From Longimicrobiales bacterium (GTDB lineage Bacteria; Gemmatimonadota; Gemmatimonadetes; Longimicrobiales; Gaopeijiaceae), in assembly GCA_965202985.1 (NCBI GenBank), contig CBDBCF010000001.1:224001-288000 (forward strand): a stretch of DNA of 64,000 nucleotides. Direction: 5' to 3'. Shown in pieces: positions 4,638 through 63,924 of this stretch. Position 1 is the first letter of the stretch; every line of letters begins with the position of its first letter. The notes under the pieces are model-generated. The model did no database searches. It saw nothing but the letters and a program-made list of their open reading frames with translations, and was not told the DNA's origin. Made by a program: the position numbers and the translations under genes.

Positions 4638-5071
4638 GCGGCGACGCGGATGTGATGGCGTTGCTGGCTGGGAGCGGCGGTCGCGGAAGGGAGAGTCGGC
4701 CGGTCGTGCTGGCCACGGTCGTGTCCACGAAGGGGTCCACGCCGCGAAAGACGGGCGCCAAGATGCTGGTGGACAAAGGCGGCGTCGTGGCCGGCACGAT
4801 CGGCGGCGGCTGCGGCGAGGCCGAGGTGATCGAGGCCGCGCTGGCCGTGCTGGGCGGTGCGCCGCCCAGGATCGTGCAGGTCGACCTGACCGAGGAGCTG
4901 ACTTCGTGGAGCCCGGCGGTCTGCGGCGGCGTGATGGACGTGTTCGTGGAGCGCGCAGACGGCGCTAGCCTTCTTCGTCCTCCCCGTCGCCCGCCGGGAC
5001 CAGCTGGGCCGAGCACAGGCGAGCAGCGTCGACGTAGCACTCCCGCGCCACGGCCGGATCCTCCCGGATGA
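4634..5071 (+). CDS. XdhC/CoxI family protein
   Basis: LATVVSTKGSTPRKTGAKM, GTIGGGCGE, CGGVMDVFVE. The tail overlaps the convergent gene. Confidence 0.85.
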   Translation: MSGDADVMALLAGSGGRGRESRPVVLATVVSTKGSTPRKTGAKMLVDKGGVVAGTIGGGCGEAEVIEAALAVLGGAPPRIVQVDLTEELTSWSPAVCGGVMDVFVERADGASLLRPPRRPPGPAGPSTGEQRRRSTPAPRPDPPG

Positions 5072-5186
5072 AGTCGATCAGGCGCTCGTGGTCGTTCAGG
5101 CCAGCGCCGGGGACGGACAGGATCTCGGAGTGGTACCCGCCCTGTTCGGCGTAGAGCACGCGCACGCGCACGCGGTCCTCGCTCAC
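4965..5186 (-). CDS. Small hypothetical protein (MSEDRVRVRVLYAEQGGYH...)
   Basis: GTG start overlaps the vkor stop; protein-like composition. Confidence 0.6.
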   Translation of the reverse strand: MSEDRVRVRVLYAEQGGYHSEILSVPGAGLNDHERLIDFIREDPAVARECYVDAARLCSAQLVPAGDGEDEEG

Positions 5187-5644
5187 GACGGCGCCCCGCC
5201 TCTCATGCGCCTCCACTCGGGCAACGTCAGCAGAAACACCGCGGTCATCACCGCCGCCGACGCCACGCAGTAGCGGCACCACGCTTGAATGACGACCGCC
5301 TCCAGGTACGTGAGCCACGCGCTGAAGAGCACGCCCAGCAAGGCGCCGCCGAAGATGACGAGGGCCAGGACGCGAGACCCGGCGAACCGAGGCTGCAGTC
5401 CCAGCACGGACAGCGCAAGGAGCACCAAGTATCCCGCCACGCCGATCCCCGACACGGGAACGGGACCCACCGCCGCCCAGCGTGACGACTGGACCACGCC
5501 GCAACCGCCGCTTTCGCCGCACTGGAGCGGTCCCCCGGCCCATCCCAGGTTGTGCGCCATGAGGTAGAACGCCAAGAACATGCCGACCAGCGACAGCGCG
5601 GCCACGCCCATGCGGCTCTTGGCCGGAGCCGGCTCGTCGTTCAA
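5183..5644 (-). CDS. Vitamin K epoxide reductase (VKOR) family protein
   Basis: C..SGGC..V..S.W loop, transmembrane helices, WCRYC CxxC. Coupled to dsbA. Confidence 0.9.
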   Translation of the reverse strand: MNDEPAPAKSRMGVAALSLVGMFLAFYLMAHNLGWAGGPLQCGESGGCGVVQSSRWAAVGPVPVSGIGVAGYLVLLALSVLGLQPRFAGSRVLALVIFGGALLGVLFSAWLTYLEAVVIQAWCRYCVASAAVMTAVFLLTLPEWRRMRGGAPS

Positions 5645-6363
5645 TTCGCCCCGCCAGCCTCGATGGCGCGCTGGACGTCCAGGAACTGGAAGCCGCCCAA
5701 GCGCTGCGCCGGCCCGCTGCCGCCGTGGTGAACGAAGATCGTCGGCGTGCCCGCCACGCCCAGCAGCCGGCCGAGTCGAAGGTTGGCCGTCACCACGTCG
5801 GCGTGCCGGTCGCTTTCGAGGCAGCCGCGGAACGCGTTCGCGTCCAGCCCCGTCTCTTCCGCCAAGGCGACGAAGTGGCCTGTCGCGTCGCGCATGAGCG
5901 CCCAATCTCTCTGGGTGCCGAACACGGCGTCGTGATACTCGAAGTAGCGGCCCTGGCCCTGGTCGCCGGCGCAGCGTGCGGCCCGAGCGGCCAGGAAGGA
6001 GTGGCGATGACTGGCCAGCGGAAAGTCGTGAAACACCAGCTTGGCCTGCCCGGTCTCGATGTAGGTCAAGTCCAGCCGCGGCTTGACGAGCTGGGCGAAC
6101 TGGCCGCAGGCGGGGCACTGATAGTCGCCGAACTCCATGATGGTGATCGGAGCATCCGCGTCTCCGTAGACGATGCCCTGGGCCAAGTCGACCAGTTCCT
6201 GGTGCGCGATCTCGCCCAGTTCCACGGGCTCCGTGACCGGCTCGCCACGCTCGCCCCGGAGCGAGATCGCCACCACAACCGCGCCGCCAACCGCCGCTCC
6301 GGCGAGAAGAGCGTAGAACCACTTCAAGCCCGACGACGTCGACGCCCTATTCTTCTTGGTCAT
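5641..6363 (-). CDS. dsbA: DsbA/BdbD-like thioredoxin-fold disulfide oxidoreductase
   Basis: EFGDYQCPAC, DFPL, GVAGTPT; N-terminal membrane anchor. Confidence 0.88.
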   Translation of the reverse strand: MTKKNRASTSSGLKWFYALLAGAAVGGAVVVAISLRGERGEPVTEPVELGEIAHQELVDLAQGIVYGDADAPITIMEFGDYQCPACGQFAQLVKPRLDLTYIETGQAKLVFHDFPLASHRHSFLAARAARCAGDQGQGRYFEYHDAVFGTQRDWALMRDATGHFVALAEETGLDANAFRGCLESDRHADVVTANLRLGRLLGVAGTPTIFVHHGGSGPAQRLGGFQFLDVQRAIEAGGAN

Positions 6364-47327: not shown

Positions 47328-48878
47328 TTGCGGCAACCTCGAAAGTTCAGCGTCGGCGTGGAGGTGCAGGAGGAGCTGCACCGGCTGGGCGACTTGGACT
47401 TGCTGGTCTTCTACATCCCGGAGGTGTCCCGCTCGCAGAAGCCCGTCTATCTCAACAACGACATCCGTCGCGCGTTCGTGAGGAGCGGAGGCAGCGACGT
47501 TCGGTGCTCCGCCAGCGAGCGCAACCGCTTTCTTGTCGATGCCGCTTCCGAGCGCTACGACAGCCAGTTGGTGGAGATCGACCCGGCCAAGGCGTTCGAC
47601 GAAGAAAGCCTGCGCTGGTACCGAGCCGTCTACGAGGCGAGGCTGGGGAACCGATCCCACAAAGAAGCGTCCGACCTGGACTTCTTGGCCGAGATGGGGC
47701 TGCTCGTGGAACGGGGCGAACGCCGATTGCCGACGCGCGCGGTGGTGCTCCTCTTTGGAACGAACCCGGCGCTCCGGCAGCATCTGCCGCGTCCGGTGGT
47801 GGATTGTCAGCGCTACTCGACAGACCGCGCCGCCGCCTATACGGGCAAACGCTGGTTCGACCGCTTGGTGCTGGAAGACAACTTGGTGCGCACTTGGCGC
47901 ACGTTGATCGAGGAATGGTACGAGAAGTTCGCCGAGCATCCGTTCCGCTTGGACCCGCAGACCATGCAACGGGACGACACGCCGCCCGACTACCTGGCGT
48001 TCCGGGAGTCGATGGTCAACCTGATCGTCCACCAGGACTACGCCGACCCCTCCCGCAAGGCGCTGATCCGCCGCTACGCCGACCAGACCGTGTTCTGGAA
48101 CCCGGGCGACGCCTTCGCTCAGGACGCCGACCTGTTCGAGCCCGGCGAGAAGGAGGTCCGCAACCCCCGAATCGTGTTCGCGTTCCGTCACATCGGGCTT
48201 GGCGAGAACGCCGGTTGGGGCCTGCGCGACGTCTTCCGAAACTGGCAGCAGCTGGGCAACGTCCCGCCCCGCATCGACAACGACAAGCGCCGCAAGAGCT
48301 TCGAGATCGTCCTAGAGAAGGAGAAGCTGATGTCCGGGCCGCGGCAGGCGTTGCGGCAGGCGCTCGGGGCGACCTTGACGGAGCCGCAGGCTCGCGTGTT
48401 CGCCTTCGCGTCGCGGGAGGCCGAGGTCACGCTGTCCCAGATCGGGCTCGTGGCGGGGGTGTCGAGCGAAGAGGCCGTGCGGCTGGCGCGGCACTTGGTC
48501 ACGCAGGTGCTCTTTCGCCGGATAGGACAGGGCCGGTACACGCTGGCCCGGCATGTCCGAGACCGACCGCCCAGCGAAGCGGGGTTGGTCACTGACCAAG
48601 CTGCCGCGCCCAAAGGGGGGTTGGTCACTGCCGGAGTGACCAACTTGACGGAACATCAGAAAACGATTATGATTAACTGTGATGCGCCTCGTACCAGAGC
48701 GGAGCTGATGGAGCGCACCGGCTTGAACCACCGCGCGTTCTTCCGGCGCAAGCACCTGGACCCGCTGGTTCGCGCCGGCCTGATTCGCATGACCCGGCCC
48801 GAAGAACCCACACACCCCGACCAAGCCTACGTGGTGACCGAATCCGGCCTTGCCTTCTTGAGTGAATCGAAGAAGTGA
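47328..48878 (+). CDS. AlbA_2/Schlafen + HATPase (RecG C-terminal-like) + wHTH protein, N-terminally truncated
   Basis: KPVY....AFVRSGGSD, FRESMVNLIVHQDY, FWNPG, RNPRI, GENAGWGL, C-terminal L.PL...GLI.MT.P..P.HP.Q.Y. Confidence 0.75.
   Translation: MRQPRKFSVGVEVQEELHRLGDLDLLVFYIPEVSRSQKPVYLNNDIRRAFVRSGGSDVRCSASERNRFLVDAASERYDSQLVEIDPAKAFDEESLRWYRAVYEARLGNRSHKEASDLDFLAEMGLLVERGERRLPTRAVVLLFGTNPALRQHLPRPVVDCQRYSTDRAAAYTGKRWFDRLVLEDNLVRTWRTLIEEWYEKFAEHPFRLDPQTMQRDDTPPDYLAFRESMVNLIVHQDYADPSRKALIRRYADQTVFWNPGDAFAQDADLFEPGEKEVRNPRIVFAFRHIGLGENAGWGLRDVFRNWQQLGNVPPRIDNDKRRKSFEIVLEKEKLMSGPRQALRQALGATLTEPQARVFAFASREAEVTLSQIGLVAGVSSEEAVRLARHLVTQVLFRRIGQGRYTLARHVRDRPPSEAGLVTDQAAAPKGGLVTAGVTNLTEHQKTIMINCDAPRTRAELMERTGLNHRAFFRRKHLDPLVRAGLIRMTRPEEPTHPDQAYVVTESGLAFLSESKK
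48580..48673 (+). promoter_or_regulatory. Intragenic palindromes followed by a sigma70-like promoter TTGACG-N17-TATGAT
   Basis: TTGGTCA-C-TGACCAA and GTTGGTCACT-N5-AGTGACCAAC; -35 at 48645-48650, -10 at 48668-48673. Confidence 0.6.
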
Positions 48879-51661
48879 CCGACTCGCCGAGCAGGCTCTT
48901 CGAGCGGAAGGCGGCCCCGACGACGGCCCAAGTCGAGTGCCTGGGCATGCCCTTCGAGTCCGACAACGCCCGGCGCGAGCACTTCCTGCAGCGACTGCGC
49001 GAGAAGCTCCCCGAGCTGCGCAAGCGTCCTGACTTCCCAAGGGGGGAGGACGAGAACATCCTGCGCATGTCCGACCCGCCGTACTACACGGCCTGCCCGA
49101 ACCCGTTCCTGGCCGAGTTCGTCGAGCACTACGGGACGCCCTACGACCCCGCCGAGGAGTACCACCGCGAGCCGTTCGCCGTGGACGTGAGCGTGGGCAA
49201 GACCGACCCGCTCTACCGGGCGCACGGCTACCACACCAAGGTCCCCCACCTGGCGATCGTCCCGTCGATCCTGCACTACACCGAGCCCGGCGACATCGTG
49301 CTGGACGGCTTCTGCGGCTCGGGGATGACCGGTGTGGCCGCCCAGTGGTGCGGCGCGGCCCCGGAGGAGTACCGCCGCAAGCTCGAGAAGGAATGGAAGG
49401 ACCAAGGCCGGGAGCCGCCCAAGTGGGGCGCGCGGCGGGCCGTCTTGGGCGATCTGTCCCCCGCGGCCACCTTCATCACCGCCAACTACAACATCCCCTT
49501 CGACGTGGACGAGTTCGCCGAGGCGGCCAAACAGCTGCTGGAAGACGTCGAGAAGGAAGTCGGCTGGATGTACGAGACGCTTCACACCGACGGAAAGACC
49601 AATGGCCGGATCAACTACACGGTGTGGAGCGAGGTGTTCTCGTGTCCGGACTGCGGCGGGGAGGTGGTGTTCGGGCGGGAGGCCGTGGACGCCCGGACCA
49701 AGAAGGTGAAAAAGCAATTTCCGTGCCCGGAGTGCGGAGCGGTGCTGACGAAGATACGGCTCGTGCGAAGCTCTTCCGCCCGGTGGGATCGAGCCCTTGA
49801 ACGGAGCGTCGACGAACCCAAGCGAGTGCCGGTCCTGATCAACTATCAGATCGGCAACGACAGGCACGAAAAGGAGCCGGACAGTGCCGATCTTCAACTT
49901 CTCGAGCGAATCGCAGCTATGGAGCCCCTCCAAGGCGTGCCCTTGGACCACATGATGCACGTCTCCGACGGCGTGACGAAGTGGGGCGACAAGTGGCGGG
50001 CCGGGTCGGCCTCGTTTCAGCACGTGCACCACCTGTTCCTGCCTCGGGCCGCGCGAACTCTGGCTTGCCTGTGGGGCTTGGTTCGCCAGCAGGACGACCT
50101 GCGGTTACGCAACATGCTCATGTTCTTGGCCGAGCAGGCGATCCTCGGCATGTCCATCTTGAATCGGTACGGTCCAACCCACTACTCCCAGGTGAACCGT
50201 GCGATGTCCGGGGTGTACTACGTCAGCTCCCAGATCTCGGAATGCTCCCTCCGCTACAACCTAACGGGACGCACCGGCCGATTGCCCAAGGCGTTCACGC
50301 CCATGCCTTCGCGTCGTGGCCATGCTGTCGTGTCGGCCGTGGACTGCGGACGCATCCCAGTTCCAAGGGACTCCGTCGACTACATCTTCACCGACCCGCC
50401 CTTCGGCGACAGCTTGGCCTACGGCGAACTCAACTTCGTCGTCGAGGCGTTCCACGGCGTTTTCACGAACCAAGCCCCGGAAGCGATCGTCAGCCCGACG
50501 CAGCGCAAGCAGCTGGACGAATACCAAGTGCTCATGCGGCGCTGCTTCGGCGAATACGCCAGGGTCCTCAAGCCGGGGCGGTGGATGACCGTCGTGTTCC
50601 ACAACTCCCAGAACTCGGTTTGGAACGCCATTCAGGAGGGCCTGTCCGCCGCCGGCTTGGTCGTGGCCGACGTGCGCACGCTGGACAAGAAGGTCGGCTC
50701 CTACAACCAAGCCGTTGCCAGCGGCGCCGTGAAGCAGGACCTGGTCATATCGTGCTACAAGCCGTCCCGCGACCTGGAGGCGCGCTTCAAGCTGACGGCC
50801 GGAAGCGAGGACGGCGTCTGGGAGTTCGTCCACAATCACCTCAGAAACCTGCCGGTGTTCGTGGCCAAAGGGGACGTGGCGGAGATCGTCGCCGAGCGCC
50901 TCGACTACCTCCTCTTCGACCGAATGGTGGCGTTCCATGTCCAGCGAGGCGTGATCATCCCCCTCTCGGCCGCCGAGTTCTACGAAGGCCTGAAGCAGCG
51001 GTTCGCGGCCCGCAACGGCATGTACTTCCTCCCCGAGCAAGCCGTCGAGCACGACCGCAAGCGGCTCACGGTCCGGCGCATCGAGCAGCTGGCCCTCCTC
51101 GTGACCGACGAGAAGTCCGCCATCGAGTGGCTGCGCCTCCAACTGAAGGCCCGTCCCCGGAGCTTCCAGGCGATCCACCCCGATTTCGTCCGCGAGCTCG
51201 GCGGCTGGCAGAGGCACGAGCAGCTTCTGGAGCTGTCCACCCTCCTGGAGCAGAACTTCCTCTGCTACGACGGCGAGGGCGAGGTCCCCTGCCAGATTCA
51301 CGGCTACCTGTCCAGCAACTACAAGGACACCCGGAACCTGCCCAAGGACGACTCCACCCTGCGGAAGCGCGCCCGCGACCGCTGGTACGTGCCGGACGTC
51401 AACAAGGCCACCGACCTGGAGCGCCTCCGGGAGCGCACGCTCCTCCGGGAGTTCCAGACCTACCGGGAACCGTCGCGACGGCGCCTGACGAAGTTCCGTC
51501 TGGAGGCCGTCCGCGCCGGCTTCCGTCGCGCCTGGGGGAAGGGCGACTACGACACGATCCTCGATATCGCCCGGAAGGTCCCCGACAAGGTGCTGCGGGA
51601 GGACCTCCAGCTGCTGATGTGGTACGACCAGGCGAAGAGGCGGAAAGAGGCGGAAGGGTGA
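48875..51661 (+). CDS. pglXI: BREX-3 DNA methyltransferase PglXI copy B (intact, 928 aa)
   Basis: Motif I DGFCGSGMTG, zinc ribbon, FTDPPF, WYVPD, EAVRAGF; BREX-3 context. Confidence 0.92.
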   Translation: MTDSPSRLFERKAAPTTAQVECLGMPFESDNARREHFLQRLREKLPELRKRPDFPRGEDENILRMSDPPYYTACPNPFLAEFVEHYGTPYDPAEEYHREPFAVDVSVGKTDPLYRAHGYHTKVPHLAIVPSILHYTEPGDIVLDGFCGSGMTGVAAQWCGAAPEEYRRKLEKEWKDQGREPPKWGARRAVLGDLSPAATFITANYNIPFDVDEFAEAAKQLLEDVEKEVGWMYETLHTDGKTNGRINYTVWSEVFSCPDCGGEVVFGREAVDARTKKVKKQFPCPECGAVLTKIRLVRSSSARWDRALERSVDEPKRVPVLINYQIGNDRHEKEPDSADLQLLERIAAMEPLQGVPLDHMMHVSDGVTKWGDKWRAGSASFQHVHHLFLPRAARTLACLWGLVRQQDDLRLRNMLMFLAEQAILGMSILNRYGPTHYSQVNRAMSGVYYVSSQISECSLRYNLTGRTGRLPKAFTPMPSRRGHAVVSAVDCGRIPVPRDSVDYIFTDPPFGDSLAYGELNFVVEAFHGVFTNQAPEAIVSPTQRKQLDEYQVLMRRCFGEYARVLKPGRWMTVVFHNSQNSVWNAIQEGLSAAGLVVADVRTLDKKVGSYNQAVASGAVKQDLVISCYKPSRDLEARFKLTAGSEDGVWEFVHNHLRNLPVFVAKGDVAEIVAERLDYLLFDRMVAFHVQRGVIIPLSAAEFYEGLKQRFAARNGMYFLPEQAVEHDRKRLTVRRIEQLALLVTDEKSAIEWLRLQLKARPRSFQAIHPDFVRELGGWQRHEQLLELSTLLEQNFLCYDGEGEVPCQIHGYLSSNYKDTRNLPKDDSTLRKRARDRWYVPDVNKATDLERLRERTLLREFQTYREPSRRRLTKFRLEAVRAGFRRAWGKGDYDTILDIARKVPDKVLREDLQLLMWYDQAKRRKEAEG

Positions 51662-52902: not shown

Positions 52903-54924
52903 CTATTCCTTGTCTACATCCCTACTGACGCCATCCAGAATCCGCTCCCACGAGCCAAATTCCCGAACAAAGTACGGCCGCTTAGCGTCTGGATCCACCA
53001 GTACCCCAAACCAGCATGTCGCATTGTGTTCAGACATTCGTCTTCGGACTGCTTCGATCAGCATCAGATGTGTCGCCGCCCCATTGTACCCACTGCACAC
53101 CGTAAGACCCACTCCTAGCACCTCGGCCACGTAACTACCGCGTTGTGGCTGCAGACTCACCACCGCCCTGCGGGCCATGGCGTCTATCTTTTGGTTAACA
53201 TGATCGCATGCGTCCGGCGGAAGTGCGAGCAAGAACATCCCAAGGTCGATTCCCGCCTTACTAGGATTGATCTCCAAGTCCGCGATTATGCCGCCCAATA
53301 CGGAGTTGACGAACGGAGTTAACGCTCCCCTCGGCACTCTATCACCAGGAAGCCCCAATCTTCGCACGTACATGGCTGCGTCCACAGTCGCCGAGAAATT
53401 CTGCTCAATATAAATAATAGAGAGATTATCGTCGACCCAAAGATTGTGCGACAGATGATAGCCCAGGGTAGTCAATTCGTGATCGGATAAGATCTTGGAC
53501 CGGAAAATCAGCCTGCGGTCAATATAGCTCAAGAAACGTAGTGGAGAATCCAACAATTCCGTGACAGAATCCAGGCAAAACACGTCACACACAAAGGGGG
53601 GCTTGAGGATATCATCTGTATACATTTTCTCCAAGAGATAATCGGTTTGATGGCCGAGAGCCGGATAATCCTCCGACGTAATGCAGAACAAATATATCTT
53701 CGGATCGGCAAGTGGTATTCGTATCTTGCTTGCAAGTCGATCCTCATACAAGTAATCATCGTCTATGATCATACGGGCGGTCTGCAGACATTGATTGTAG
53801 GCAGCTTGAATACCCTTCTTGAAATCAGAAATAATCGCCGCGGCATCTCCCTTTCTTGCATCGTAGGTTAGTCGTTTCGATTTTACTTGACCAATTATGA
53901 CTCGATTGCCAAAAACTACCAGTACGTCGACTTCTCCGTGGGTGTAGCCAGCACTATCCTTCAGTTGAACATTCCGGAATACATGTTGCTCACCGAAGAC
54001 ATGTTTTAGTCGGCGATATACAATCTGTTCGGCGACTTCTCCTCTGTGTCGCGAAGCAGTTTGCTCGTAGGGTGTGTTGATCATCCAATAGTATGGACTG
54101 ACGTAGAGAGATTCCATCAAGTTGATGTAATCGAACAGAACAAAGGACTTGCCGTCTTGACGAATGATGGGGCGGGCCTTCGCCATGTTGAAGTCACCAG
54201 GCGATCTGTAGTCGGTGTTACGTTCATCTGTCGTACTGCAAAACGACTGTAGTATAGCGAGAATCGCACTGTCGTCAATATCGACTGCAGCTACGAGGTC
54301 GTCAAACGAGAACGTTAGTGCCTGACAGAAAACAGAAGGAGTACTGGCGGCCGCATCGGCCTGGGACAATGCGGAGACGATGTTCGTTACCGCTTCATCC
54401 TGATGACAGCAAATAGCTTGCGCAACGATAATAGCATCCTCAATGGAAAATCCCTTGTGTGTTCTGAGCCATTGTTCATCCTCTCGGTATCGCTCAGCCG
54501 CAAAATCACTATATTGGAATGGTTGAGCCGACTCTGCACTGTAGAAGATCGGTTCGCGCATACGCTGGCCAATAGGCTGTTGATGCAGAATAGAAGGCGA
54601 AAGCGACTTGTGAAGCATCTGTAACAGCTCGTGAGTACGAGCAATGTAGTGTGCCATCGCCTCCATAGTCGGTTCCGTATAGTCAATGGGGTGCTTCAGT
54701 AGCAGCCCTGCCAACATGGTCTGCTCCCAGCGATTTAGTCGATCTGGCCTGTGATAAGTCATCCATTGCTTTGCCGACACACCGGAGGTCACGTTCACGT
54801 AATTATTCGTAACAGCAATACTGCACAATGCATAGATGTATCCAGGAGATCCACAGAGGTTAGTGAGAGCTTCGAAAATACTCTCTGTAGACTGTGATTC
54901 AGAATGGGAACACGTGGCGCTCAT
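52903..54924 (-). CDS. Hypothetical protein with NERD-like PD-(D/E)XK nuclease domain
   Basis: RGEVAE, GEVDVLVVFGNRVIIGQVKSK, AYNQ. Much lower GC than the host genes. Confidence 0.7.
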   Translation of the reverse strand: MSATCSHSESQSTESIFEALTNLCGSPGYIYALCSIAVTNNYVNVTSGVSAKQWMTYHRPDRLNRWEQTMLAGLLLKHPIDYTEPTMEAMAHYIARTHELLQMLHKSLSPSILHQQPIGQRMREPIFYSAESAQPFQYSDFAAERYREDEQWLRTHKGFSIEDAIIVAQAICCHQDEAVTNIVSALSQADAAASTPSVFCQALTFSFDDLVAAVDIDDSAILAILQSFCSTTDERNTDYRSPGDFNMAKARPIIRQDGKSFVLFDYINLMESLYVSPYYWMINTPYEQTASRHRGEVAEQIVYRRLKHVFGEQHVFRNVQLKDSAGYTHGEVDVLVVFGNRVIIGQVKSKRLTYDARKGDAAAIISDFKKGIQAAYNQCLQTARMIIDDDYLYEDRLASKIRIPLADPKIYLFCITSEDYPALGHQTDYLLEKMYTDDILKPPFVCDVFCLDSVTELLDSPLRFLSYIDRRLIFRSKILSDHELTTLGYHLSHNLWVDDNLSIIYIEQNFSATVDAAMYVRRLGLPGDRVPRGALTPFVNSVLGGIIADLEINPSKAGIDLGMFLLALPPDACDHVNQKIDAMARRAVVSLQPQRGSYVAEVLGVGLTVCSGYNGAATHLMLIEAVRRRMSEHNATCWFGVLVDPDAKRPYFVREFGSWERILDGVSRDVDKE

Positions 54925-55400: not shown

Positions 55401-57182
55401 GCGGCCTTATTCATGACTCGTGTGAAGTTGTCGTTGGGGCGAGATTGCGGACGTGCACAAGGCGAGCAGGGCAAAACGAGCGCGCGAGCGGGCCGAATTG
55501 GCGATTTCAGACGGTGGAGACGAGGCGCGCAAGGGGATTTTGGGCGTTCGGAGCGCGTTGCTGCGCGCGCTGGACACACTGGTGCGTCGGAGCGGCCGTC
55601 GAGGCCGGAACGGCGACGGGCGCAGGTGCGGCGCTAGCCGCCCGGGTCCGGCAGCAGGGCGAGCTGTCGGGTGGCCAGCGTCCAGTGGCCCGCCGAGCGG
55701 CCGACGATCGTGACGACGCGGCGTCCGGAGACGGTGAACCGGGCGGGCGCTCGCAGCACGCGTTCGAGCAGGCGACGCAAGCTCCACCCGGTCTGGGTGG
55801 CGCGTTCCAGCAGCGTGCGCAGCACGTGCATGGTCTGGTAGCCGAACAGCGCGACGAGCAGACGCACCTCGTTGCAGGCGAAGGCGTCGACGCTCGGGCC
55901 GCGCTGGCCGACCGGTCGGCCCCGGTACCAGCGCTTGGGCCGCGGCGACGACGACAGCGCCGGGTCCACCACGCTCTTCAACTCGCCCATGTGGCCCTCC
56001 GCCTTGCCGCGCTTCCGGTAGAGCGCCAGCAGCGCGTCGGCGGGCATCGCGTCCGCCGACATCGACGTGATCAGCCAGAACACCTCCGGGAACAGCTCGC
56101 CGGGCCGCTCCTTGACCACGCACACCACGCGCCTGGACCGCGACCACGAAGCCGCCCGGCAGCCCTGCTCCGGCTCCCACCACCACATCCGCGCATCGTC
56201 GCCCGCCTCCCGCAAGTCGTACCACGTCTCCTGCACCGCTTCGTCCACCGCCCGCTCGGCCAACCGGTCGAGCACAGCGTTCCGACGGAGCCTGGCCACG
56301 AACGGCGTGCCCCGGTCCTCGAGCGCCCGCATCAGCTGCTCGGCCGGGTACCCCGCGTCCATCCGCACCACCGCCCTGCGGCAGCAGTGCCGCTCGACGC
56401 GGTCGAGCACCGCCAGCACGAACTCCGTCCCGCCCGCAGCCGTGTGCGCCTTGCCCGCCCGCAGCCGAGCGTCCAGCAAGTCGCCCGTCTCCGCCGACGA
56501 CGCCACCAGCGGATGGTACACCGTCGCCTTGCAGTAGCCGTTCCAGCCGCTGCCCGGCCGCTTGCCGTGAACCTCGATCGGCAGGCTGTCCACGTCCACC
56601 ACCATCTCCGCCAGCCGACGCCCGCCGTTGCGCGCCCGCAGCCGCCAGCCCGCCAGCCGCGCCAGCCCCTCCCGCAGCACCTCCGGGTTGTCCCCCCGCG
56701 ACAGCATCGCCACCAGCCGCGACAGCGTCGGCTGCGACGCCAGCACACGCCCCGCCGCCAACGGCGTCGTGCCCGCCCGCCCGCTCGCAGCCAGCCGGAA
56801 CGCCGGATCGTCCCGCAACATCGTCGCGTCGGCGTGGTCCCGACGACACTGAGCCGCCAGCAGGCACGCCGTCCGCACCAGCTCCGCCAGCGAATGCCGT
56901 GTCCTGCGCGGGTCCCGAGCGTCGTCGATCCGCTCGCTCAGCCAGCGGTCCACGCCGCTGGCGCTCAACACCTCGCGACACAAGAGAACGCCCGCGTCGC
57001 CCGTCACCTTGTCGGGCCGAACCTCGACCCGCACCGACTTGTTGTACCGAAACGGAGCACCCATTATCTTCACCTTGGCGTTGCGTGCGGCAGGCCGCCG
57101 GTTCTCGGCCCGTGAACCTTGAACCTAATGGCCTGCCGCCGCGCGCCACACCCTTACGCCTGAACCTCGTGAATAAGGCGGG
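55401..57182 (-). mobile_element. IS1380-family element, apparently complete
   Basis: Imperfect 14-bp IRs (gcggccttattcat / gtgaataaggcggg) flanked by a TTGAA duplication at 55396-55400 and 57183-57187. Confidence 0.85.
55634..57073 (-). CDS. IS1380-family DDE transposase
   Basis: TGDAG, LR.DP, LASQPTLSRL, DVDS, YHPL, RMDAGY, Y..RG.AE..ELK, NE.RL. Confidence 0.92.
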   Translation of the reverse strand: MKIMGAPFRYNKSVRVEVRPDKVTGDAGVLLCREVLSASGVDRWLSERIDDARDPRRTRHSLAELVRTACLLAAQCRRDHADATMLRDDPAFRLAASGRAGTTPLAAGRVLASQPTLSRLVAMLSRGDNPEVLREGLARLAGWRLRARNGGRRLAEMVVDVDSLPIEVHGKRPGSGWNGYCKATVYHPLVASSAETGDLLDARLRAGKAHTAAGGTEFVLAVLDRVERHCCRRAVVRMDAGYPAEQLMRALEDRGTPFVARLRRNAVLDRLAERAVDEAVQETWYDLREAGDDARMWWWEPEQGCRAASWSRSRRVVCVVKERPGELFPEVFWLITSMSADAMPADALLALYRKRGKAEGHMGELKSVVDPALSSSPRPKRWYRGRPVGQRGPSVDAFACNEVRLLVALFGYQTMHVLRTLLERATQTGWSLRRLLERVLRAPARFTVSGRRVVTIVGRSAGHWTLATRQLALLPDPGG

Positions 57183-57187
57183 TTGAA

Positions 57188-57920
57188 GCGGCCCCAAGAG
57201 GCGCTCGAGCGGCCTGGGAGCGGCCTGCAGGCCCCGAGGCGTGCCGACGCCGAAGCGTCTTCGCATGAGCAGCCCGAGGTTGAAGGCGGCGACGTGAATC
57301 AGCATCCGCTTGCGGACGTCCTCGTGGCCGCGCACGTGCACGCGGCGAAGCCCGCCCGTCCCCAGCAGGTGCGCGAACGAGCGCTCCAGCTTCTCGCCCC
57401 ACATCCACAGCAGCGCCTTGCCGCGCTCGCCCCGAATCCGCCGCCGGTTCGCATAGACCGGCTTCTGGGCTTCTTTGCTCTGCTTCCAACTCCGCCGACC
57501 GCGCGCGGGCTCGCTCACGTAGCCGTGCAGCCTCCGGTCCTCCAACTCCGTCATCGTCCTGTTCGAGTGATAGCCCTTGTCGCACACCATTCCGCCGCCC
57601 CAGCCCCCAGCTCCGCGAGCCGCCGCTCCGCCTCGTCCAGCGTCTTCGTCACCGACGCCGCATCGCCCCCGTCCGTCGTCTGCACCGTCACGCCCACCAC
57701 GGCGCCCGACTCCAGGTCCACCACCTGCTCCAGCTTGTGACCCAGCCGCGTGCGCCCGTCCTTCATCTTCGTGATCCGCGCCTCCGGATCCCCAGGATGC
57801 ACCCACTCCGCGTTCGACCCCTTCTTCGGACGCTTCCGGTCCAGCTTCGCCAACTCCGCGCGCGTCGGCGTCTCGATCCCCGACGACCGCGCCAACTCCC
57901 GCAGCCACGCCTCGTAGCCC
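57188..57920 (-). mobile_element. IS1182-like transposase, 5'-truncated and frameshifted
   Basis: DPEARITKMKDGRT, VDLESG, DKGYHS, ERSFAH...TGGLRR, AFNLGLLMR. Confidence 0.75.
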
Positions 57921-57924: not shown

Positions 57925-58062
57925 CCCCATGGTGAACACCTTACGCCGCCGCCGGCTCGCGCGCTTGATCCCTTCCTCCCGCATGAGGCAGGCGATCCGC
58001 TTGGACGCTATCTGCTCGCCCTTGACTTCAGAGCCCGGATTGCCCACCTTCTCCACATTACA
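57925..58062 (-). mobile_element. IS3-family orfB fragment
   Basis: G....KRIA.LMREEGI....RRR.K.T resembles the IS3 HTH_21 region. Confidence 0.55.
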
Positions 58063-58094
58063 CTAGACGCGGAACCCAACATGCGGGAGGAGAC

Positions 58095-58781
58095 GTGAGT
58101 ATCGATCCTGGTAGCGACACCGCGGGTCCAGCGGCCCACACCGGAGAGGACGCGAAGCTGAAGATCGTGTCGATAAGGGTCAACGGGGCACAGATTCAGG
58201 TATACGAACGCGTTACGGTCCGAGAGATTGTCGAGAAGGCAAGCGAGGCTGGCGCGATTTCAGGAGTTATCGAGGAATACGTTATCGAAAGGGTCGAGAC
58301 AGTGGGCGAGCACGGCCTTGAGGAAGAAATCGAAGTTCAGGAACTAGAAGAATTCATGGCGATCCCGTTCGGCAAGACCGAGGTCGCGACAGTGTCGAAC
58401 GTTCACGAGAGAATACGGGAAGAGCTTAGGGCCCTGGGATATCCGTCCCGTGTCGTGACAGGCGATACCTCAGGCGGACCACAGACGGTCGTAGTATTCG
58501 AATATCCAGTGCTTACCGGTCGTTTCAAGGGCACTACGTGCATGATGGGAATATCCACCCAATGCGAGGCCGTGGGGTATCCGGAGATTCCCCCGCATTG
58601 GATTTTCATTAGCCCGCCTATTACCGATACACGAGATGGAACCAACCATGGACTCAACAGGTTTGACGGGATGGATTGGGTAGCCCTGAGTCGGCCGCCG
58701 GGCGCATTTTGGGACAAGCTTGGCTCGAAGAACATGAAAGGGTACATGGAACATGTGGCCCGCGTGTGGAAGAACATATGA
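58095..58781 (+). CDS. Ubiquitin-like (beta-grasp) domain fused to an E2-like domain
   Basis: N-half IRVNG...VTVREIVE.A...YVIE...EEIEV....F.AIP.G. C-half GYP.IPPHW and W..LSRP. Strong RBS GGGAGGAG. Confidence 0.7.
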   Translation: MSIDPGSDTAGPAAHTGEDAKLKIVSIRVNGAQIQVYERVTVREIVEKASEAGAISGVIEEYVIERVETVGEHGLEEEIEVQELEEFMAIPFGKTEVATVSNVHERIREELRALGYPSRVVTGDTSGGPQTVVVFEYPVLTGRFKGTTCMMGISTQCEAVGYPEIPPHWIFISPPITDTRDGTNHGLNRFDGMDWVALSRPPGAFWDKLGSKNMKGYMEHVARVWKNI

Positions 58782-60247
58782 TCCAAGGGGCTTGGCACGA
58801 AGTCGTGCTTCCCGGCGATACGAATCGACGAGCCTGCGATCATCTCTTGCAACATTACCGACAAGGTGATTTCCAGGAAGACTTATGTTTTGGCTCTTGG
58901 ACGCCCAGCCGCGGAATGGACAGAGAGACGGCAATCGTAACCGACATTATCCTTCCGAAGCGCGGCGAGCGAACTCTTCATTCAACGGGCAACGTTAGCT
59001 TCGTGGGTCCCTATCTTGCTCGAGCGACGCGAGAAGCCGTCCGCAAGACGCACGGATTGGTCTTCATGCACAGCCATCCCACCAACGGGTGGCAAGAGAT
59101 GAGCGCAGCGGACGAGCGGGCGGAACGAGGTCGGATCGCAGACGTTGCAAGGACGACAGGCCAGCCACTCGTCGGCATGACCGTCGGAAGAGACGGCCAC
59201 TGGAGCGCTCGAGTGTGGAAGGGCGACGCCGGAAGGCGGAGTTCGTTGACGTGCAGGAAGGTGCGAATCGTAGAGGAAAGTCGGCTCGTCGTGTGGCAGC
59301 GGCCGCTCCGTGGCCGGGGAAGACGATCCCGACAGTACCGGACCGTCCAAAGCTGGGGAGAAGACAAGCAGGGGTGGATCGAGAGCGTTCGGATCGGCGT
59401 CGTAGGGCTCGGGAGCGTAGGAAGCGTAGTCGTGGAAGGCCTGGCACGGATTGGGGTTCGCGACTTGGTGCTCATCGATCACGACTTGGTAGAGGAGAAC
59501 AACTTGGATCGCCTGCTTAATGCCGGCACCAGGGAAATCGGCAAGCCAAAGACAGTCGTGGCGGCCAGAGCCGCACGAAGGGCAAGTTCCGCTCGGTCGA
59601 TTTCGGTGGCAACCGTTCAGAATTCGCTCCAGAGTCGAGAAGCGTACAGCTTGGCTAGAGACTGCGACATCTTGGTAAGCTGCGTGGATGGTCCGGTAGG
59701 GCGCGACCTCTTGAACAGAATCGCATTTCGGGACGGCATCCCTGTAATAGACGGGGGAGTGGAGGTTCGAACGGACATCAGGACCAACAACATGAACGCA
59801 GCACGATGGAAGGCTCATTTGGTGAACCCTTACCAGCAGTGCCTGCGGTGCAAGGAACAGTATACCTCGAGCGATGTAATGATGGAACTGGACGGGTCTC
59901 GGGGTGACCCTTCCTACATTCGCACGCCCGACGGCCGGACCGGCGGAGAGAACGTGTTCAACTTGAGCCTGGCTGTCGGAAGCGAGCTTCTGAACATCGT
60001 GGTTCGCATGCTAGTGGCTGACGGTTGGTGGCCTCAACAACGTGGACTCGAACGGAATCTGGTGACCGGACGCATAAAGACGCAGGACGGACAGTGCTGG
60101 GAGGGCTGTACGATACGTCGAGAAAGTTGGATGGGCGACATGGCGGAGGCCATACCTTATATTGACGCCGGACGACTGAGGCGAACACTCGGCGACGCAC
60201 TTCGGCGTCGTTGGAGGAACACATTCAAGAGATGGAGGATAGGCTGA
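58778..60247 (+). CDS. JAB peptidase-ThiF/E1 adenylyltransferase fusion
   Basis: QEDLCF, FMHSHP and S..D (JAB). VVGLGSVGS, IDHD.VEENNLDR, CVD...R, IDGG, CLRC (ThiF). Confidence 0.88.
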   Translation: MIQGAWHEVVLPGDTNRRACDHLLQHYRQGDFQEDLCFGSWTPSRGMDRETAIVTDIILPKRGERTLHSTGNVSFVGPYLARATREAVRKTHGLVFMHSHPTNGWQEMSAADERAERGRIADVARTTGQPLVGMTVGRDGHWSARVWKGDAGRRSSLTCRKVRIVEESRLVVWQRPLRGRGRRSRQYRTVQSWGEDKQGWIESVRIGVVGLGSVGSVVVEGLARIGVRDLVLIDHDLVEENNLDRLLNAGTREIGKPKTVVAARAARRASSARSISVATVQNSLQSREAYSLARDCDILVSCVDGPVGRDLLNRIAFRDGIPVIDGGVEVRTDIRTNNMNAARWKAHLVNPYQQCLRCKEQYTSSDVMMELDGSRGDPSYIRTPDGRTGGENVFNLSLAVGSELLNIVVRMLVADGWWPQQRGLERNLVTGRIKTQDGQCWEGCTIRRESWMGDMAEAIPYIDAGRLRRTLGDALRRRWRNTFKRWRIG

Positions 60248-61248
60248 TGGAGCAAGAGAACACACAGAATAGTCTGCACACTTTGATCAAGTACGTTGAA
60301 GGTATTCCCGATCGTATCCAGAAGCGACTGACTACGGGAAACGGTATGGATGAGGACAAGATGCGTTCATGGATCGCCGAAGAACTGCAAAAACAGGTTC
60401 GCAGAGTTAGATTCTACAACGACAAGCGGAACCATGAGACGGAAAGCTGTTTCGCGCATTATACGTCGTGGAGTAGTTTTCTTGCGATACTGAACCAAGA
60501 ACGACCACTGATGCGGATGTACAACTACGAGACGGCCAACGATCCGCAGGAGGGTCAGATATACCCCGAGGGATGGAGGGAAGTCGGGGAGAGGGCAAGA
60601 TGCATAGGAGACGTCAACGGTGCTGATGACCGTTCGCAACCGGGTGACACTTACGGATGTTCGTTTTCTAGCGGCACCGAGGACATAGGTGACGACCTGA
60701 CTCTCTGGCGGCTTTACGGCGACAACGGAGAGGGCTGTTCTTTGATGACGAGTTCGCCCGGAATGGATATGTACCGGATTCGCTATAGAAAACACGACGG
60801 GAGTGTAAGAAACCGCAAAGAAGCTGAGGAAGACAAGGCAGTGGCTCAGCAGATGAACAAACTGCTTTGCGCAGGAGAGCGAACCATTGACAGCCTTGAT
60901 GACAGCTATATGCAACCCGTAGGATCAGCTATTGGGGACGCCGTCCAGAGAGTATTAGAAGGCTATTGCTACTTGGTCAAGGATGTAGCCTATTCGAACG
61001 AAAAGGAGTGGCGCCGGATCGTTGTCAGGCCGCCTCTTGTGGAAACCCGCTTTGACGCTGATGTGGCAGGAGTGAGACGATATGTCGAAGGGCATGCATT
61101 CAAGGACTTATTGGTGACAGGATCGGCAATCACAATTGGGCCAAAGGTGGGCAATTCCAAGGCAGTTTGCGACTATGTGAAGAGGACGGCGGGCCACAGA
61201 GGTCTTCAACGGCCTAGCATTAGAAATTCGGCCAAGTCCTATCGGTAG
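60247..61248 (+). CDS. DUF2971 domain protein
   Basis: HYTS, NDPQEG, CSFS...DDL.LWRLYG..G.G, K..AY..EKEWR. Confidence 0.8.
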   Translation: MEQENTQNSLHTLIKYVEGIPDRIQKRLTTGNGMDEDKMRSWIAEELQKQVRRVRFYNDKRNHETESCFAHYTSWSSFLAILNQERPLMRMYNYETANDPQEGQIYPEGWREVGERARCIGDVNGADDRSQPGDTYGCSFSSGTEDIGDDLTLWRLYGDNGEGCSLMTSSPGMDMYRIRYRKHDGSVRNRKEAEEDKAVAQQMNKLLCAGERTIDSLDDSYMQPVGSAIGDAVQRVLEGYCYLVKDVAYSNEKEWRRIVVRPPLVETRFDADVAGVRRYVEGHAFKDLLVTGSAITIGPKVGNSKAVCDYVKRTAGHRGLQRPSIRNSAKSYR

Positions 61249-61260: not shown

Positions 61261-61908
61261 ATGACGAGCCCAGACATCGTTTTGGCGGCTATGGTGCCCG
61301 CTCCCCGCGATGTATGGATCGACCCGGTCCGAATTCAGAAGCTGCTGTTCTTGATCGACAAGGAGGTTCCGAGCCTAGTCGGCGGCCCACACTTCAACTT
61401 CCAGCCCTACAGCTACGGTCCGGTCGACCTTGATGTCTACCTTGAACTGGAGGCACTGACGACAGATTACTGCGTACACACCGACCGGACCTTGCGTCAT
61501 CTCCGATTCCGGCTCACCAGCAAGGGGATTGGTCGGGGCGAAGCTCTATTGGCGAGCCTTCCCGACAAGGCATCCCGCTTCGTCGAACGAGCCTGTAAGT
61601 GGGTTTTGGAAGCTTCGTACCACGACTTGCTTTCCGCTATCTATCAGCGGTATCCCGAGATGGCGGTCAACGCAGTGGCAGTTCAGCTGATTCCCAGATC
61701 CACACGCCGCAAGAAGCAATCGGCGATTACAGCGGTCCTGACAGGACTGGCCAGAAGCATTGATTTCATGGGACTGCTTGACGAGCGTCCTGCTGGTATC
61801 GACAGCAACGTCTCCGACCGGGAGGCGATAGGGGACGCTTGGCAACGGACGGGCAACCACCTCAGAGCGGCCATTGGCGAGGTGGACGGCGCACGAGGTC
61901 GGAAGTAG
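61261..61908 (+). CDS. Panacea/SocA (DUF4065)/YwgA-like protein with C-terminal extension
   Basis: RIQKLLFLID, F.PY.YGP...VY..L..L, LL..IY..YP. Confidence 0.6.
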   Translation: MTSPDIVLAAMVPAPRDVWIDPVRIQKLLFLIDKEVPSLVGGPHFNFQPYSYGPVDLDVYLELEALTTDYCVHTDRTLRHLRFRLTSKGIGRGEALLASLPDKASRFVERACKWVLEASYHDLLSAIYQRYPEMAVNAVAVQLIPRSTRRKKQSAITAVLTGLARSIDFMGLLDERPAGIDSNVSDREAIGDAWQRTGNHLRAAIGEVDGARGRK

Positions 61909-61910
61909 AC

Positions 61911-63924
61911 TTGGGTCCGCATCGTGAGCAGTGGCGCGACCGCATCCTCCATGAGTTCCTGCCTGGAGCCTCCCGGCTGACCGTCGTATCCGACCCCGAC
62001 GGCTTGGTGCTGGACGAGACCGTGCTGGCCGAGCTTCGGCGACGGGGCTTCGAGGTGCTGGTCTTCGACGAGCCCGTGGCGTTTCGATACGCCTACGAAT
62101 CGAGATGCCGGCGCTACTGGGACGACGGCAAGCCGGTCGAGGCCGTCGTCGTGGCGAGGATGGACGCTCTTGATACCGCCAATCTGCCCTACGACGTAGT
62201 CCAAGCAGGGAGACCGCTGACGTTCGGGCTCGGCGCGCTGTTCCCCGGTCTGAGCCGGACGGTCTTGGCGACGCTCGGCCCTACGCAGCTCGATGCCCTC
62301 TGCGACGCCGTGGAAGGCAAGCCGCCGGGCGTTCTGGGCGACAACGCGACCAAGGACTTCGTTCTCCGCCATGTCGTCGGGATCGCCCCCGAACTCGTGC
62401 GGGAACCTCCGAGCCTGCTTCGCGCCCTGCTCCGCATCCATCACGGCGGCCAGTCGATTCCGTCACTGCTGGGAGAGCGCTTGGTCCGGGTTCTCTGCCA
62501 GGAGGGCCGCTTCGAGGACTGGCCACTGGAGCAGATCGTGACCGGACGCGAACGCCTTCTTCGCGTTCCTTCAAGAGCGCTGGCCTCGCTTCCTTGGCCG
62601 TGCCGCCGGATCCCAGACGACGTCGGAAGAGCGCGACCACGACTTCGCCTACGCAGGGCCGGCGGACCTGCCCTTCGACCACAGCGACGTTCACGTCTAC
62701 ATCGACAACCTCTTCCGGGAAGGGTTTCTGCGACCGGTCGATCACGCGGCCGCCGACGCCTTCGCCGACAGTTGGATTGCGTCCGGAGTGCGGACTTCGG
62801 GCGACGACGCCGACGCGCAGCGCCTGGAACGCCTGCTCGACGCGGCGGCCGGCGCCCTGCCTGACCCGGACGCGCGCTACGGTGACTGGCTGCGCTTCGC
62901 CCGGACATGGGCGGAAGCAGGGGCGCTCGCCCTGTCCCCGGAACGCGAGGCCGCCGACGCGACCGAGCCGAACCTTGCCGCGCTCCGCGACCGTGTCGAC
63001 GCGGCCTTCGCCGAGTGGCTGGGGCGTTGCTATGCGGGCTTGGCCAACCTGCCGCCTTCCCCGCCGGTCATGTTGCACCATGTGCCGCGCGTGCTTGCGC
63101 GCCACCTGGACGACGCGCCGGAGCACAAGGCCGCCCTGCTGGTCGTGGACGGCCTGTCAATGGACCAATGGGTCGTGGTGCGCGAAGAACTGGCCCGTCG
63201 TCGGCCCGCCTACCGCTTTCGGGAAGGGGCCGTCTTCGCCTGGACTCCCACGATCACGTCCGTGTCGCGCCAAGCTGCGTTCGCGGGGAAGCCGCCCTTC
63301 TACTTCCCGCCGGGCAGCATCGACTCCACGGACCGGGAGCCGGCGCTGTGGCGTCAGTACTGGACCGGGCGCGGCTTGGCCGCCGACGACGCCGTCTACC
63401 AGAAGAACCTGGGCGCTGGTTCGCTGGAGGCCGTCGCCGACCTGATCTCTCGTCCGCGAGTCCGGGCTGCCGGGCTGGTCGTGGACACCGTGGACAAGAT
63501 CATGCACGGCATGGAGCTCGGCGCCCGAGGAATGCACGGCCAAGTCCGTCAGTGGGCGCGGGAGCCCTACTTGGCCGCGCTCCTCGACCTGCTCCTGGAC
63601 AACGGATTCCGAGTCTGGCTCGCCTCCGACCACGGCAACGTCGAAGCGACGGGCTGCGGCCGCCCAGCCGCCGGAGGAGTCGCCGACCTGCGGGGCAAGC
63701 GCATCCACGTCTACCCCAGCGCGACGCTGCGCAGGCGGGCCGCCGTCGAGTTCCCGGACGCCCGGCCGTGGCCGCCGGCGGGCCTGCCCCAAGACTACCT
63801 GCCCCTGCTGGCTCCCGGACGCTCCGCGTTCGTTCGCAAGGGGAAGCGCGTGGTCGCCCACGGAGGCGCTTCGTTGGAGGAGGTCGTCGTGCCGCTGGTC
63901 GGCATCGAGCGGGCGGAGCTGTGA
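61911..63924 (+). pseudogene. pglZ: BREX-3 phosphatase PglZ, +1 frameshift near 62541
   Basis: WRD.IL.EF, DPDGL, FRYAYE, LPYD. After the shift: AFFAFLQERW, LLVVDGLS.DQW, PTITSVSRQA, SDHGN, HGGASLEEVVVP. Confidence 0.9.

What the first reader, a model, noticed from the sequence alone, without database searches (positions are those of the whole stretch)
58330..58720. Ubl-E2 junction without Gly-Gly, and an E2 that appears to use Ser rather than Cys
Seen: the junction reads FMAIPFG-KTEVA-T-VSNVHER with no stop, and an in-frame GTG could start the E2 separately. The E2 has WVALSRPP with no Cys there. The E1 has no Cys in the loop after CLRC. Known (recalled): Bub-type E2s use a catalytic Ser (oxyester) with an E1 lacking the catalytic Cys. 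Inference: JAB cleavage, either after PFG or after EVA (a non-Gly terminus), would release Ubl and E2 together and act as an activation switch.
Basis: partly seen in the sequence, partly recalled or inferred. Interest (0 to 1): 0.7.

Follow-up and report, generated by a model that had tools for sequence, protein, structure and literature searches.

The report
Alanine-ended Bub tagging kit with ADP-ribosyltransferase
The stop-free junction is real and joins a ubiquitin-like tag to its carrier enzyme, as in the known cysteine-free bacterial 'Bub' tagging systems, but in this branch the tag likely ends in alanine, the usual BubE protease is missing, and most close relatives carry a predicted ADP-ribosyltransferase gene beside the kit, which offers a testable lead on what Bub systems do.

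Summary
The 228-aa Ubl–E2 ORF (58095–58781) has no stop at the junction, and independent contigs and eight other fused homologues agree. Ubl–E2 fusion cut by a JAB–E1, with Tyr (E1) and Ser (E2) oxyester chemistry, is published type I Bub. Relatives fix the tag's end: in 37 of 51 loci a stop follows T-x-V-Ala/Ser directly, 12 have short tails and 2 are fused; the Gly of PFG is not conserved. The likely cut is Ala98|Thr99. The fusion looks like tolerated stop loss, not a switch. Non-Gly ends have precedent: type II BubA ends in Ser, and some CD-NTases end in Ala. Not found in print: this BubE-less branch (type I layout, His/Ser E2, Cys4 zinc-site E1) and its link to a DUF2971 ADP-ribosyltransferase-fold gene in 41 of 51 loci, in both orientations, with mirrored trees. 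More distant relatives mostly lack that gene. This scan noted the Ala-ended branch before on other DNA; I found no note of the DUF2971 link.

The parts
58095..58781 (+). Ubl-E2 fusion ORF (BubAB-like), 228 aa, GTG start
   Evidence: anti-SD duplex -10.3 kcal/mol before the start
58095..58388 (+). Ubl part, residues 1-98, ending F-x-x-[IV]-x4-T-x-V-Ala98 (predicted mature end)
   Evidence: Pfam Multi_ubiq in 16 of 45 family members, none for the window itself; hhalign to BubA last domain prob 82%, E 1.2e-6; stop directly after this residue in 37 of 51 loci
58386..58394 (+). Junction: Ala98|Thr99 (predicted JAB cut site) and Val100 GTG (possible internal E2 start)
   Evidence: anti-SD duplex -6.6 kcal/mol, matched or beaten by 8 of 70 internal start-like codons (itself included), so only suggestive
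58392..58781 (+). E2 (UBC fold, BubB-like); His168 (58596) and Ser199 (58689) are the predicted catalytic pair
   Evidence: AF2 pLDDT 86.9; best structural match BubB 9eae_C, Z 10.0, rmsd 3.7 A over 115 residues, next 7.9; His168 in 46 of 46, Ser199 in 45 of 46 (Thr in 1)
58778..60247 (+). JAB-E1 fusion (BubCD-like), 489 aa: JAB E34/H98/H100/D112, adenylation R245, crossover Tyr380 (59915), Cys355/358/440/444 predicted zinc site
   Evidence: best PDB hit Citrobacter BubCD, E 9e-21; all listed residues invariant in 43 of 43; Tyr380 aligns to the loop Tyr of the genome's canonical BubCD
60247..61248 (+). DUF2971 protein, predicted ADP-ribosyltransferase fold (H71-Y72, S139-F140, E252-x-E254)
   Evidence: Pfam DUF2971 over cut-off; H71, Y72, F140, E252 and E254 invariant in 34 of 34, S139 in 31 (Cys in 3); best structural matches Tpt1 Z 6.6 and DarT Z 6.0; present in 41 of 51 loci

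Best explanation
The locus encodes a three-gene, cysteine-free Bub-like tagging kit (Ubl-E2, JAB-E1) followed by a DUF2971 gene, and the JAB domain likely cuts the fusion after Ala98 so that an alanine-ended tag would be passed from E1 Tyr380 to E2 Ser199 and on to targets. Shown: gene order, the open junction, residue conservation, where relatives stop, and the DUF2971 linkage. Inferred from published Bub biochemistry: JAB cleavage, adenylation of Ala98 (R245), the Tyr380 and Ser199 oxyesters with His168 as helper, and transfer to target lysines. The fusion is most likely a tolerated loss of the stop codon that the JAB repairs, and the E2 may also be made from the internal GTG. With no BubE, the JAB is the only peptidase candidate (inferred). 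The likely role is antiphage or stress defence. The DUF2971 ART-fold protein is the likely effector in the two close clades, with the tag regulating it or acting alongside it (least certain step).
For: C-terminus: stop directly after T-x-V-A/S in 37 of 51 loci, 3-11-residue variable tails in 12, fusion in 2; 33/11/2 of 46 after removing 5 near-duplicates. Among the best 120 of 409 stand-alone Ubl hits, 108 end in VA; Ala is at anchor position 12 in 117 of 117 anchored sequences, the next residue varies, and none stops earlier. Same pattern as the invariant Gly of canonical BubA (112 of 112, then stop 20, tail 77, long extension 15). Non-Gly precedent: type II BubA ends TDKS and conjugates in vitro; 7 type II-like Ubls fetched here end TDRS (4), TDQS (1) or SYLA (2). 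Chemistry: profile alignment to type I BubB puts Ser199 on the S333 position and His168 on the D299 position (E 0.001); E2 fold closest to BubB; JAB, adenylation and Tyr residues invariant. Fusions lie in different clades with different linkers (W and L021 on either side of the deepest split; linkers). DUF2971: 41 of 51 loci, 24 convergent and 17 co-oriented; pairwise identities track the three core proteins (Mantel rho 0.81-0.83, p 0.001, 32 loci); trees share their best-supported groups. A DUF2971 gene is the antiphage system Aristaios. Neighbours include DNA methylases, PglZ and HTH + IrrE-type pairs.
Against: In an ungapped register from the last strand, the type I Gly aligns with Val97, not Ala98. 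The E2 lacks the type I His335 (Pro201 here) and the profile matches are weak (type I prob 21%; type II E 0.05, His one column off); Foldseek E to BubB is 0.18. The Ubl hits were ranked by a profile that contains the motif, and the pattern allowed only A/S/M at the last place. DUF2971 is not universal: 10 of 51 loci lack it, 7 of them with an intact JAB-E1, and only 2 of 10 regions from a phylum-wide search had it, one probably the same locus as L039. The ART structural scores are middling (Z under 8). The Mantel correlation is partly driven by one deep split, and co-inheritance is not interaction. The Bub paper found no phage protection for any Bub operon.
Confidence: 0.7

Rival explanations
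1. The fusion is a selected activation switch: Ubl and E2 stay inactive until JAB cleavage releases both.
For: A fused Ubl cannot be adenylated, so cleavage is obligatory here; fused forms persist at 49-87% identity and among distant representatives.
Against: 49 of 51 loci are unfused; linkers differ in length and sequence between fused groups; the JAB is encoded in the next gene and no trigger for it is known; canonical Bub mixes split and fused forms.
Confidence: 0.12
2. Ala98 is a one-residue propeptide (like Ala98 after Gly97 in Ensifer BilA), and the working end is Val97.
For: Ungapped register puts the type I Gly on Val97; Val/Ile is there in 117 of 117; BilA precedent for trimming one Ala.
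Against: No gene stops at Val (0 of 117; 0 of 49), whereas 20 of 112 canonical BubA stop at their Gly. Ala stays invariant ahead of tails, while propeptides are variable. Tail length varies within Bub (9 residues from the last Phe in E. coli type II, 11 in type I, 12 here). A beta-branched adenylated terminus has no precedent known to me (recall).
Confidence: 0.08
3. JAB cuts after Gly93 (PFG|K), giving an ordinary Gly end.
For: Gly93 is the only Gly near the end; all characterised type I Bub and Bil Ubls expose a Gly.
Against: Gly at that position in 22 of 49 loci; the close fusion P0002 has Ser there; conserved T95, V97 and A98 would be discarded.
Confidence: 0.03
4. The E2 works through Cys157 (STQC motif), by ordinary thioester chemistry.
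For: Cys157 is invariant in the 26-sequence alignment of the close clade.
Against: Present in only 14 of 46 family members; it lies before the YP motif, not at the position aligned with BubB S333.
Confidence: 0.04
5. On the fourth gene only: DUF2971 is an independent Aristaios-like defence gene that has hitchhiked with the cassette and has no biochemical link to the tag.
For: Aristaios works as a single gene; distant relatives keep the three-gene core without it, some next to an AAA ATPase pair instead; it is on the opposite strand in 24 of 41 loci.
Against: Adjacency is kept across 7 phyla while the protein diverged to 20% identity, through changes of orientation (3 on the tree, starred branches force only 1), with mirrored trees.
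Confidence: 0.45

Closest known systems
Type I Bub (6E.1): Citrobacter BubAB, BubCD, BubE (Ye et al., bioRxiv 10.1101/2024.11.21.623953 / PMC11601596; PDB 9ea4, 9eae)
   Same: Gene order Ubl(-E2), JAB-E1; fusion needing JAB cleavage; Cys-less crossover loop with an invariant Tyr; E2 Ser; closest sequence match for JAB-E1 and closest fold for the E2.
   Different: Tag ends in Ala, not Gly; E2 has His at the D299 place and Pro at the H335 place; E1 has an extra four-Cys set that the canonical BubCD lacks at the CxxC position; no BubE; DUF2971 neighbour.
Type II Bub (6E.2): E. coli ZDHYS365 BubA, BubBD, BubE (same paper)
   Same: Non-Gly tag end (TDKS in Table S2; TDRS/TDQS/SYLA in loci fetched here); E2 Ser with an upstream His rather than Asp.
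   Different: E2 is fused to E1 and there is usually no JAB; BubE present; E2 profiles match only weakly (E 0.05).
Aristaios (DUF2971 single-gene antiphage system, PMC11381338); DUF2971 as an HYE-clade ART family (PMC12522546)
   Same: DUF2971 domain with H-Y and ExE motifs and a predicted DarT/Tpt1-like fold.
   Different: Aristaios stands alone; the passages read mention no link to a ubiquitin-like system. ART activity has not been shown for either.
Type II CBASS Cap2/CD-NTase (PMC10449767)
   Same: Precedent for E1/E2 substrates with a conserved C-terminal Gly or Ala.
   Different: The substrate is a cyclase, not a beta-grasp Ubl; Cys thioester chemistry; separate JAB.

Membership tests
Type I Bub | JAB-E1 fusion with intact JAB (E, H-x-H, D) and adenylation Arg | tested here: met
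   E34, H98, H100, D112, R245 in 43 of 43; BubCD is the best PDB hit
Type I Bub | E1 crossover loop without Cys, with invariant Tyr | tested here: met
   0 of 43 with Cys in 359-391; Tyr380 in 43 of 43; aligned to canonical BubCD Tyr
Type I Bub | E2 of BubB fold with invariant Ser | tested here: met
   Z 10.0, rmsd 3.7 A, 115 residues to 9eae_C; Ser199 in 45 of 46
Type I Bub | E2 accessory His (S+2) and Asp (DMF) | tested here: not met
   Pro201 at the His place (45 of 46) and His168 at the Asp place (46 of 46)
Type I Bub | Ubl with conserved C-terminal Gly | tested here: not met
   Ala at the end; the control set of canonical BubA has Gly in 112 of 112
Bub (types I and II) | bubE (DUF6527) in the operon | tested here: not met
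   The genome's only PF20137 match lies in a separate canonical Bub operon; none genome-wide in 4 of 5 relatives; no such cluster among neighbours of 51 loci (clusters in 4 or more loci listed)
Type II Bub | E2-E1 fusion without JAB | tested here: not met
   E2 is separate from E1, and JAB is fused to E1
Type II Bub | E2 Ser accompanied by His and Lys | tested here: inconclusive
   His168 and Arg200 resemble the type II H and S-x-K pattern, but hhalign E is 0.05 and the His is one column off
Bub (types I and II) | Ubl conjugation through Tyr and Ser oxyesters | not testable with these tools
   needs biochemistry
DUF2971 / Aristaios-type ART | DUF2971 domain with H-Y and ExE motifs | tested here: met
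   Pfam 22.9 bits against cut-off 22; motifs in 34 of 34
DUF2971 / Aristaios-type ART | ART fold | tested here: inconclusive
   Top rows are Tpt1 (Z 6.6, rmsd 3.1 A, 114 aligned) and DarT (Z 6.0, rmsd 3.8 A, 134 aligned), all under Z 8; Foldseek E 0.19
DUF2971 / Aristaios-type ART | NAD+-dependent activity and phage protection | not testable with these tools
   needs assays

The most novel reading that the evidence does not exclude
The tag and the ADP-ribosyltransferase form one biochemical pathway: either the alanine-ended Ubl is ligated to the DUF2971 enzyme to arm or silence it, or the E2's oxyester chemistry places the Ubl on the ADP-ribose that the enzyme adds to nucleic acid or protein, a bacterial counterpart of Deltex-type ubiquitination of ADP-ribose (recalled, not checked here). 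This would be the first identified target and role for a Bub-type system.
Probability: 0.2. Interest if true: 0.85.

Novelty: new variant of a known kind. Interest (0 to 1): 0.45.

Why it matters
The role and targets of Bub systems are open: their describers found no phage protection. The published catalogue was built from DUF6527-containing operons, so BubE-less branches like this one are outside it by construction. This branch gives two clean tests. First, can a beta-grasp tag be processed and conjugated through alanine? Second, does a co-inherited ART-fold enzyme, whose family includes a known antiphage gene, supply the missing effector or target? The fusion itself and the Ser/Tyr chemistry are already known.

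Tried and rejected
Assembly-error or pseudogene explanation for the missing stop: rejected. Cleavage after PFG and a Cys157 thioester: rejected. BubE supplied in trans: possible in this genome (canonical operon) but not general (0 matches in 4 of 5 relatives). Sequence searches of the PDB with the fusion and with the E2 profile gave no hit, and the Ubl profile gave none under E 0.1. NCBIfam and PADLOC name neither Ubl nor E2. No plasmid match for the E2. No RNA holder listed, so nothing on expression. The JAB-E1 tree is a quick tree because the careful search did not finish. Cluster look-up of 10 distant E2s gave no informative names. Literature searches that found no description of this branch or of a DUF2971-Ubl link; the peer-reviewed version of the Bub paper and subscription journals were not searchable. 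The Ledvina preprint passages gave no statement on Ala ends. The Panacea-like gene after DUF2971 forms no cluster in 4 or more loci, so it was left out of the system.

Full report
Observation. The window holds three overlapping + strand ORFs: a 228-aa Ubl-E2 (58095-58781), a 489-aa JAB-E1 (58778-60247) and a 333-aa DUF2971 protein (60247-61248). The junction reads F87-M-A-I-P-F-G93-K-T95-E-V97-A98-T99-V100(GTG)-S-N-V-H-E-R without a stop. Logan contigs span it with no difference in X1 and X2 (one sample, possibly the window's source) and in X4 (another study, depth 4.6). Of 66 homologues, 9 are full-length fusions, one of them the window's own cluster, and 57 are stand-alone E2s. The junction is real.

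Where the tag ends. I fetched 50 related loci, 6 from metagenome contigs and 44 from genomes. With the window that makes 51. The Ubl stops directly after T-x-[VIT]-[AS] in 37 (35 by pattern, plus L016 and the frameshifted L048 read by hand), has a 3-11-residue variable tail in 12, and is fused to the E2 in 2, the window and L021. Removing 5 near-duplicates gives 33, 11 and 2 of 46. L013 reads ...GKTEVA-stop, the window's own motif. The Gly of PFG is present in 22 of 49. The pattern allowed only A/S/M at the last place, so I made a second count anchored on the upstream Phe: among the best 120 of 409 stand-alone Ubl hits, 108 end in VA; in the 117 anchored ones position 12 is always Ala, position 13 varies, 105 stop there, 12 carry 2-7 more residues, and none stops earlier. 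The ranking profile contains the motif, but it does not choose where the stop falls.

Control and counter-evidence. The same genome carries a canonical type I Bub operon with BubE, whose BubA ends in QQG and is separate from BubB. Among the best 120 of 189 relatives, Gly is invariant in the 112 anchored ones and is followed by a stop (20), a tail (77) or a long extension (15). So the last invariant residue before a variable tail marks the end, and here it is Ala98. Against this, the ungapped register puts that Gly on Val97. But tail length differs within Bub: the E. coli type II BubA of the Bub paper ends ...TDKS, nine residues from its last Phe (Table S2), and forms conjugates in vitro. From 20 BubE regions fetched in this phylum, 7 type II-like Ubls end TDRS (4), TDQS (1) or SYLA (2). 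CD-NTases conserve Gly or Ala. A non-Gly end is therefore precedented, although my term search of the Bub paper found no remark on it.

Chemistry. The E2 model (pLDDT 86.9) is closest to BubB (Z 10.0, rmsd 3.7 A, 115 residues; next 7.9; Foldseek E 0.18). Prok-E2_E matches 15 of 46 members weakly, and the Atlas agrees at 0.92. Profile alignment to type I BubB (E 0.001, prob 21%) places Ser199 on S333, Pro201 on H335 and His168 on D299. His168 is in 46 of 46, Ser199 in 45 of 46, Cys157 in only 14. A His in place of the Asp recalls type II E2s, but that match is weak. The JAB-E1's best PDB hit is BubCD. E34, H98, H100, D112, R245, Y380 and four Cys (355, 358, 440, 444) are invariant in 43 of 43, with no Cys in the loop. 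Tyr380 aligns with the loop Tyr of the genome's BubCD, which by eye matches Citrobacter Y370. In type I Bub the JAB cleaves BubAB after G229, and Y370F or S333A/H335A abolish conjugation.

The fusion. Fused forms sit on both sides of the deepest split of the JAB-E1 tree and have unrelated linkers; several keep a Met at the E2 start. Distant representatives include further fusions with T-x-V-A/S junctions (16 candidate fusions of 119 hits inspected by eye, several with this motif). The published type I list also has split and fused operons. I read the fusion as stop-codon loss tolerated because the JAB trims whatever follows the Ala. A switch is not excluded but has no positive support. The GTG has a modest ribosome site.

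The fourth gene. No BubE was found: the genome's only match is in the other operon, and 4 of 5 relatives have none at all. Instead a DUF2971 gene occurs in 41 of 51 loci (36 of 46 after removing duplicates), next to JAB-E1 in 40 and about 2 kb away in L026; 24 are convergent and 17 co-oriented. On 32 loci holding all four proteins (7 duplicates or truncated loci and those missing a protein left out), pairwise identities correlate at rho 0.81-0.83 (Mantel p 0.001), across 7 phyla and down to 20% identity. The quick trees share their main groups. Kin share history, so this shows co-inheritance, not contact. The protein keeps H-Y and ExE motifs in 34 of 34; its model (pLDDT 91.3) best matches Tpt1 and DarT at Z 6.0-6.6, and the ubiquitin-modifying CteC only at about 3. 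DUF2971 is described as a DarT-like ART family, and one member, Aristaios, is an antiphage gene. Against an obligatory link: 7 loci with intact JAB-E1 lack it, and in a phylum-wide search (11 of 401 genomes) only 2 of 10 fetched regions had it, while 7 had the E2 and Tyr-bearing JAB-E1 without it, 6 of these with an Ala-ended Ubl hit. The core is three genes; DUF2971 is the partner of two clades.

Context. The cassette (56% GC against 66% for the window) lies between transposases and a DNA methylase upstream and a PglZ gene downstream. Related loci sit by methylases and HTH + IrrE-type pairs, like published Bub. A sponge-metagenome run holds identical pieces (X3), and several host names are sponge-associated.

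What was read. Ye et al.: parts 1-5 of 6 of the main text, part 1 of 2 of the supplementary PDF, part 1 of 7 of Table S1; figures not visible. Gong et al., PMC10557695, PMC10449767, the Ledvina preprint, PMC12522546, PMC11381338 and PMC1779556: passages only. Supplements of those were not read and could hold mention of this branch. Eight searches found no description of it. Earlier notes of this scan report Ala/Ser-ended, BubE-less Bub branches on other DNA; they came after my reading was formed and are not evidence. No note held DUF2971 with Bub.

Verdict. It works like Bub but fails three defining features of type I (Gly end, Asp/His E2 site, BubE), so it is a new variant, not a member. What remains is an undescribed Ala-ended branch and a testable effector link. 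Interest 0.45.

Noticed in passing
G000:C1:2886391-2889350 (L051, L052): A second, canonical type I Bub operon in the same genome: multi-ubiquitin BubA ending in QQG, separate BubB (DMF, WSRH), BubCD and BubE, beside a methylase-like gene. It allows a cross-specificity test between Gly- and Ala-ended tags.
   Followed up: partly
window 61261-61908 (+): Panacea/SocA-like antitoxin-domain gene (weak Pfam match E 0.25; PADLOC PDC-M19A E 2e-8) right after DUF2971; it forms no cluster among the related loci.
   Followed up: partly
window 48875-51661 and 61839-63924 (+): A large DNA methylase upstream and a PglZ gene downstream flank the cassette, suggesting a BREX-like island; the PglZ-region ORFs 61839-62864 and 62788-63924 lie in different frames, possibly a frameshift.
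   Followed up: partly
window 55634-57908 (-): A DDE transposase (55634-57073) and further transposase-like fragments directly upstream of the cassette; they may have displaced its regulators.
   Followed up: partly
window 52903-54924 (-): Low-GC 673-aa NERD-domain protein (Pfam E 6e-6), a probable nuclease of the same island.
   Followed up: no
runs X1, X2, X4 laid on window 58050-58540: A relative at much higher depth (about 290-410 in X1 and X2) has several indels in the Ubl part and runs off the cassette near 58537: probably a decayed copy in another organism.
   Followed up: no
L023, L025, L026, L030, L044 (about 4400-5850): HTH repressor in 5 loci and an IrrE/Peptidase_M78 gene in 4, directly upstream of the Ubl, resembling the CapH/CapP pair of published Bub operons.
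   Followed up: partly
L004-L006, L032, L040, L043, L046, L047: Ubls that appear to have two beta-grasp repeats yet end in the same TPVA motif.
   Followed up: no
L086 2715-4521, L088 2489-4271, L089 5776-6261: In the FS[AL]PP subclade an AAA_21 ATPase plus a small unnamed protein follows JAB-E1 where others have DUF2971 (ATPase in 2 loci, small protein in 3): a possible alternative effector.
   Followed up: partly
P0393, P0394, P0396, P0397, P0401, P0402, P0404: A distant clade of Ubl-E2 fusions with P-V-S or T-V-S junctions and WQYWSRP/WEYWSRP E2 motifs, in which the His appears shifted to a PxGPH motif; gene context not seen.
   Followed up: partly
L013, L016, L022, L048: Decaying cassettes: truncated or fragmented JAB-E1, or frameshifted Ubl and E2.
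   Followed up: no
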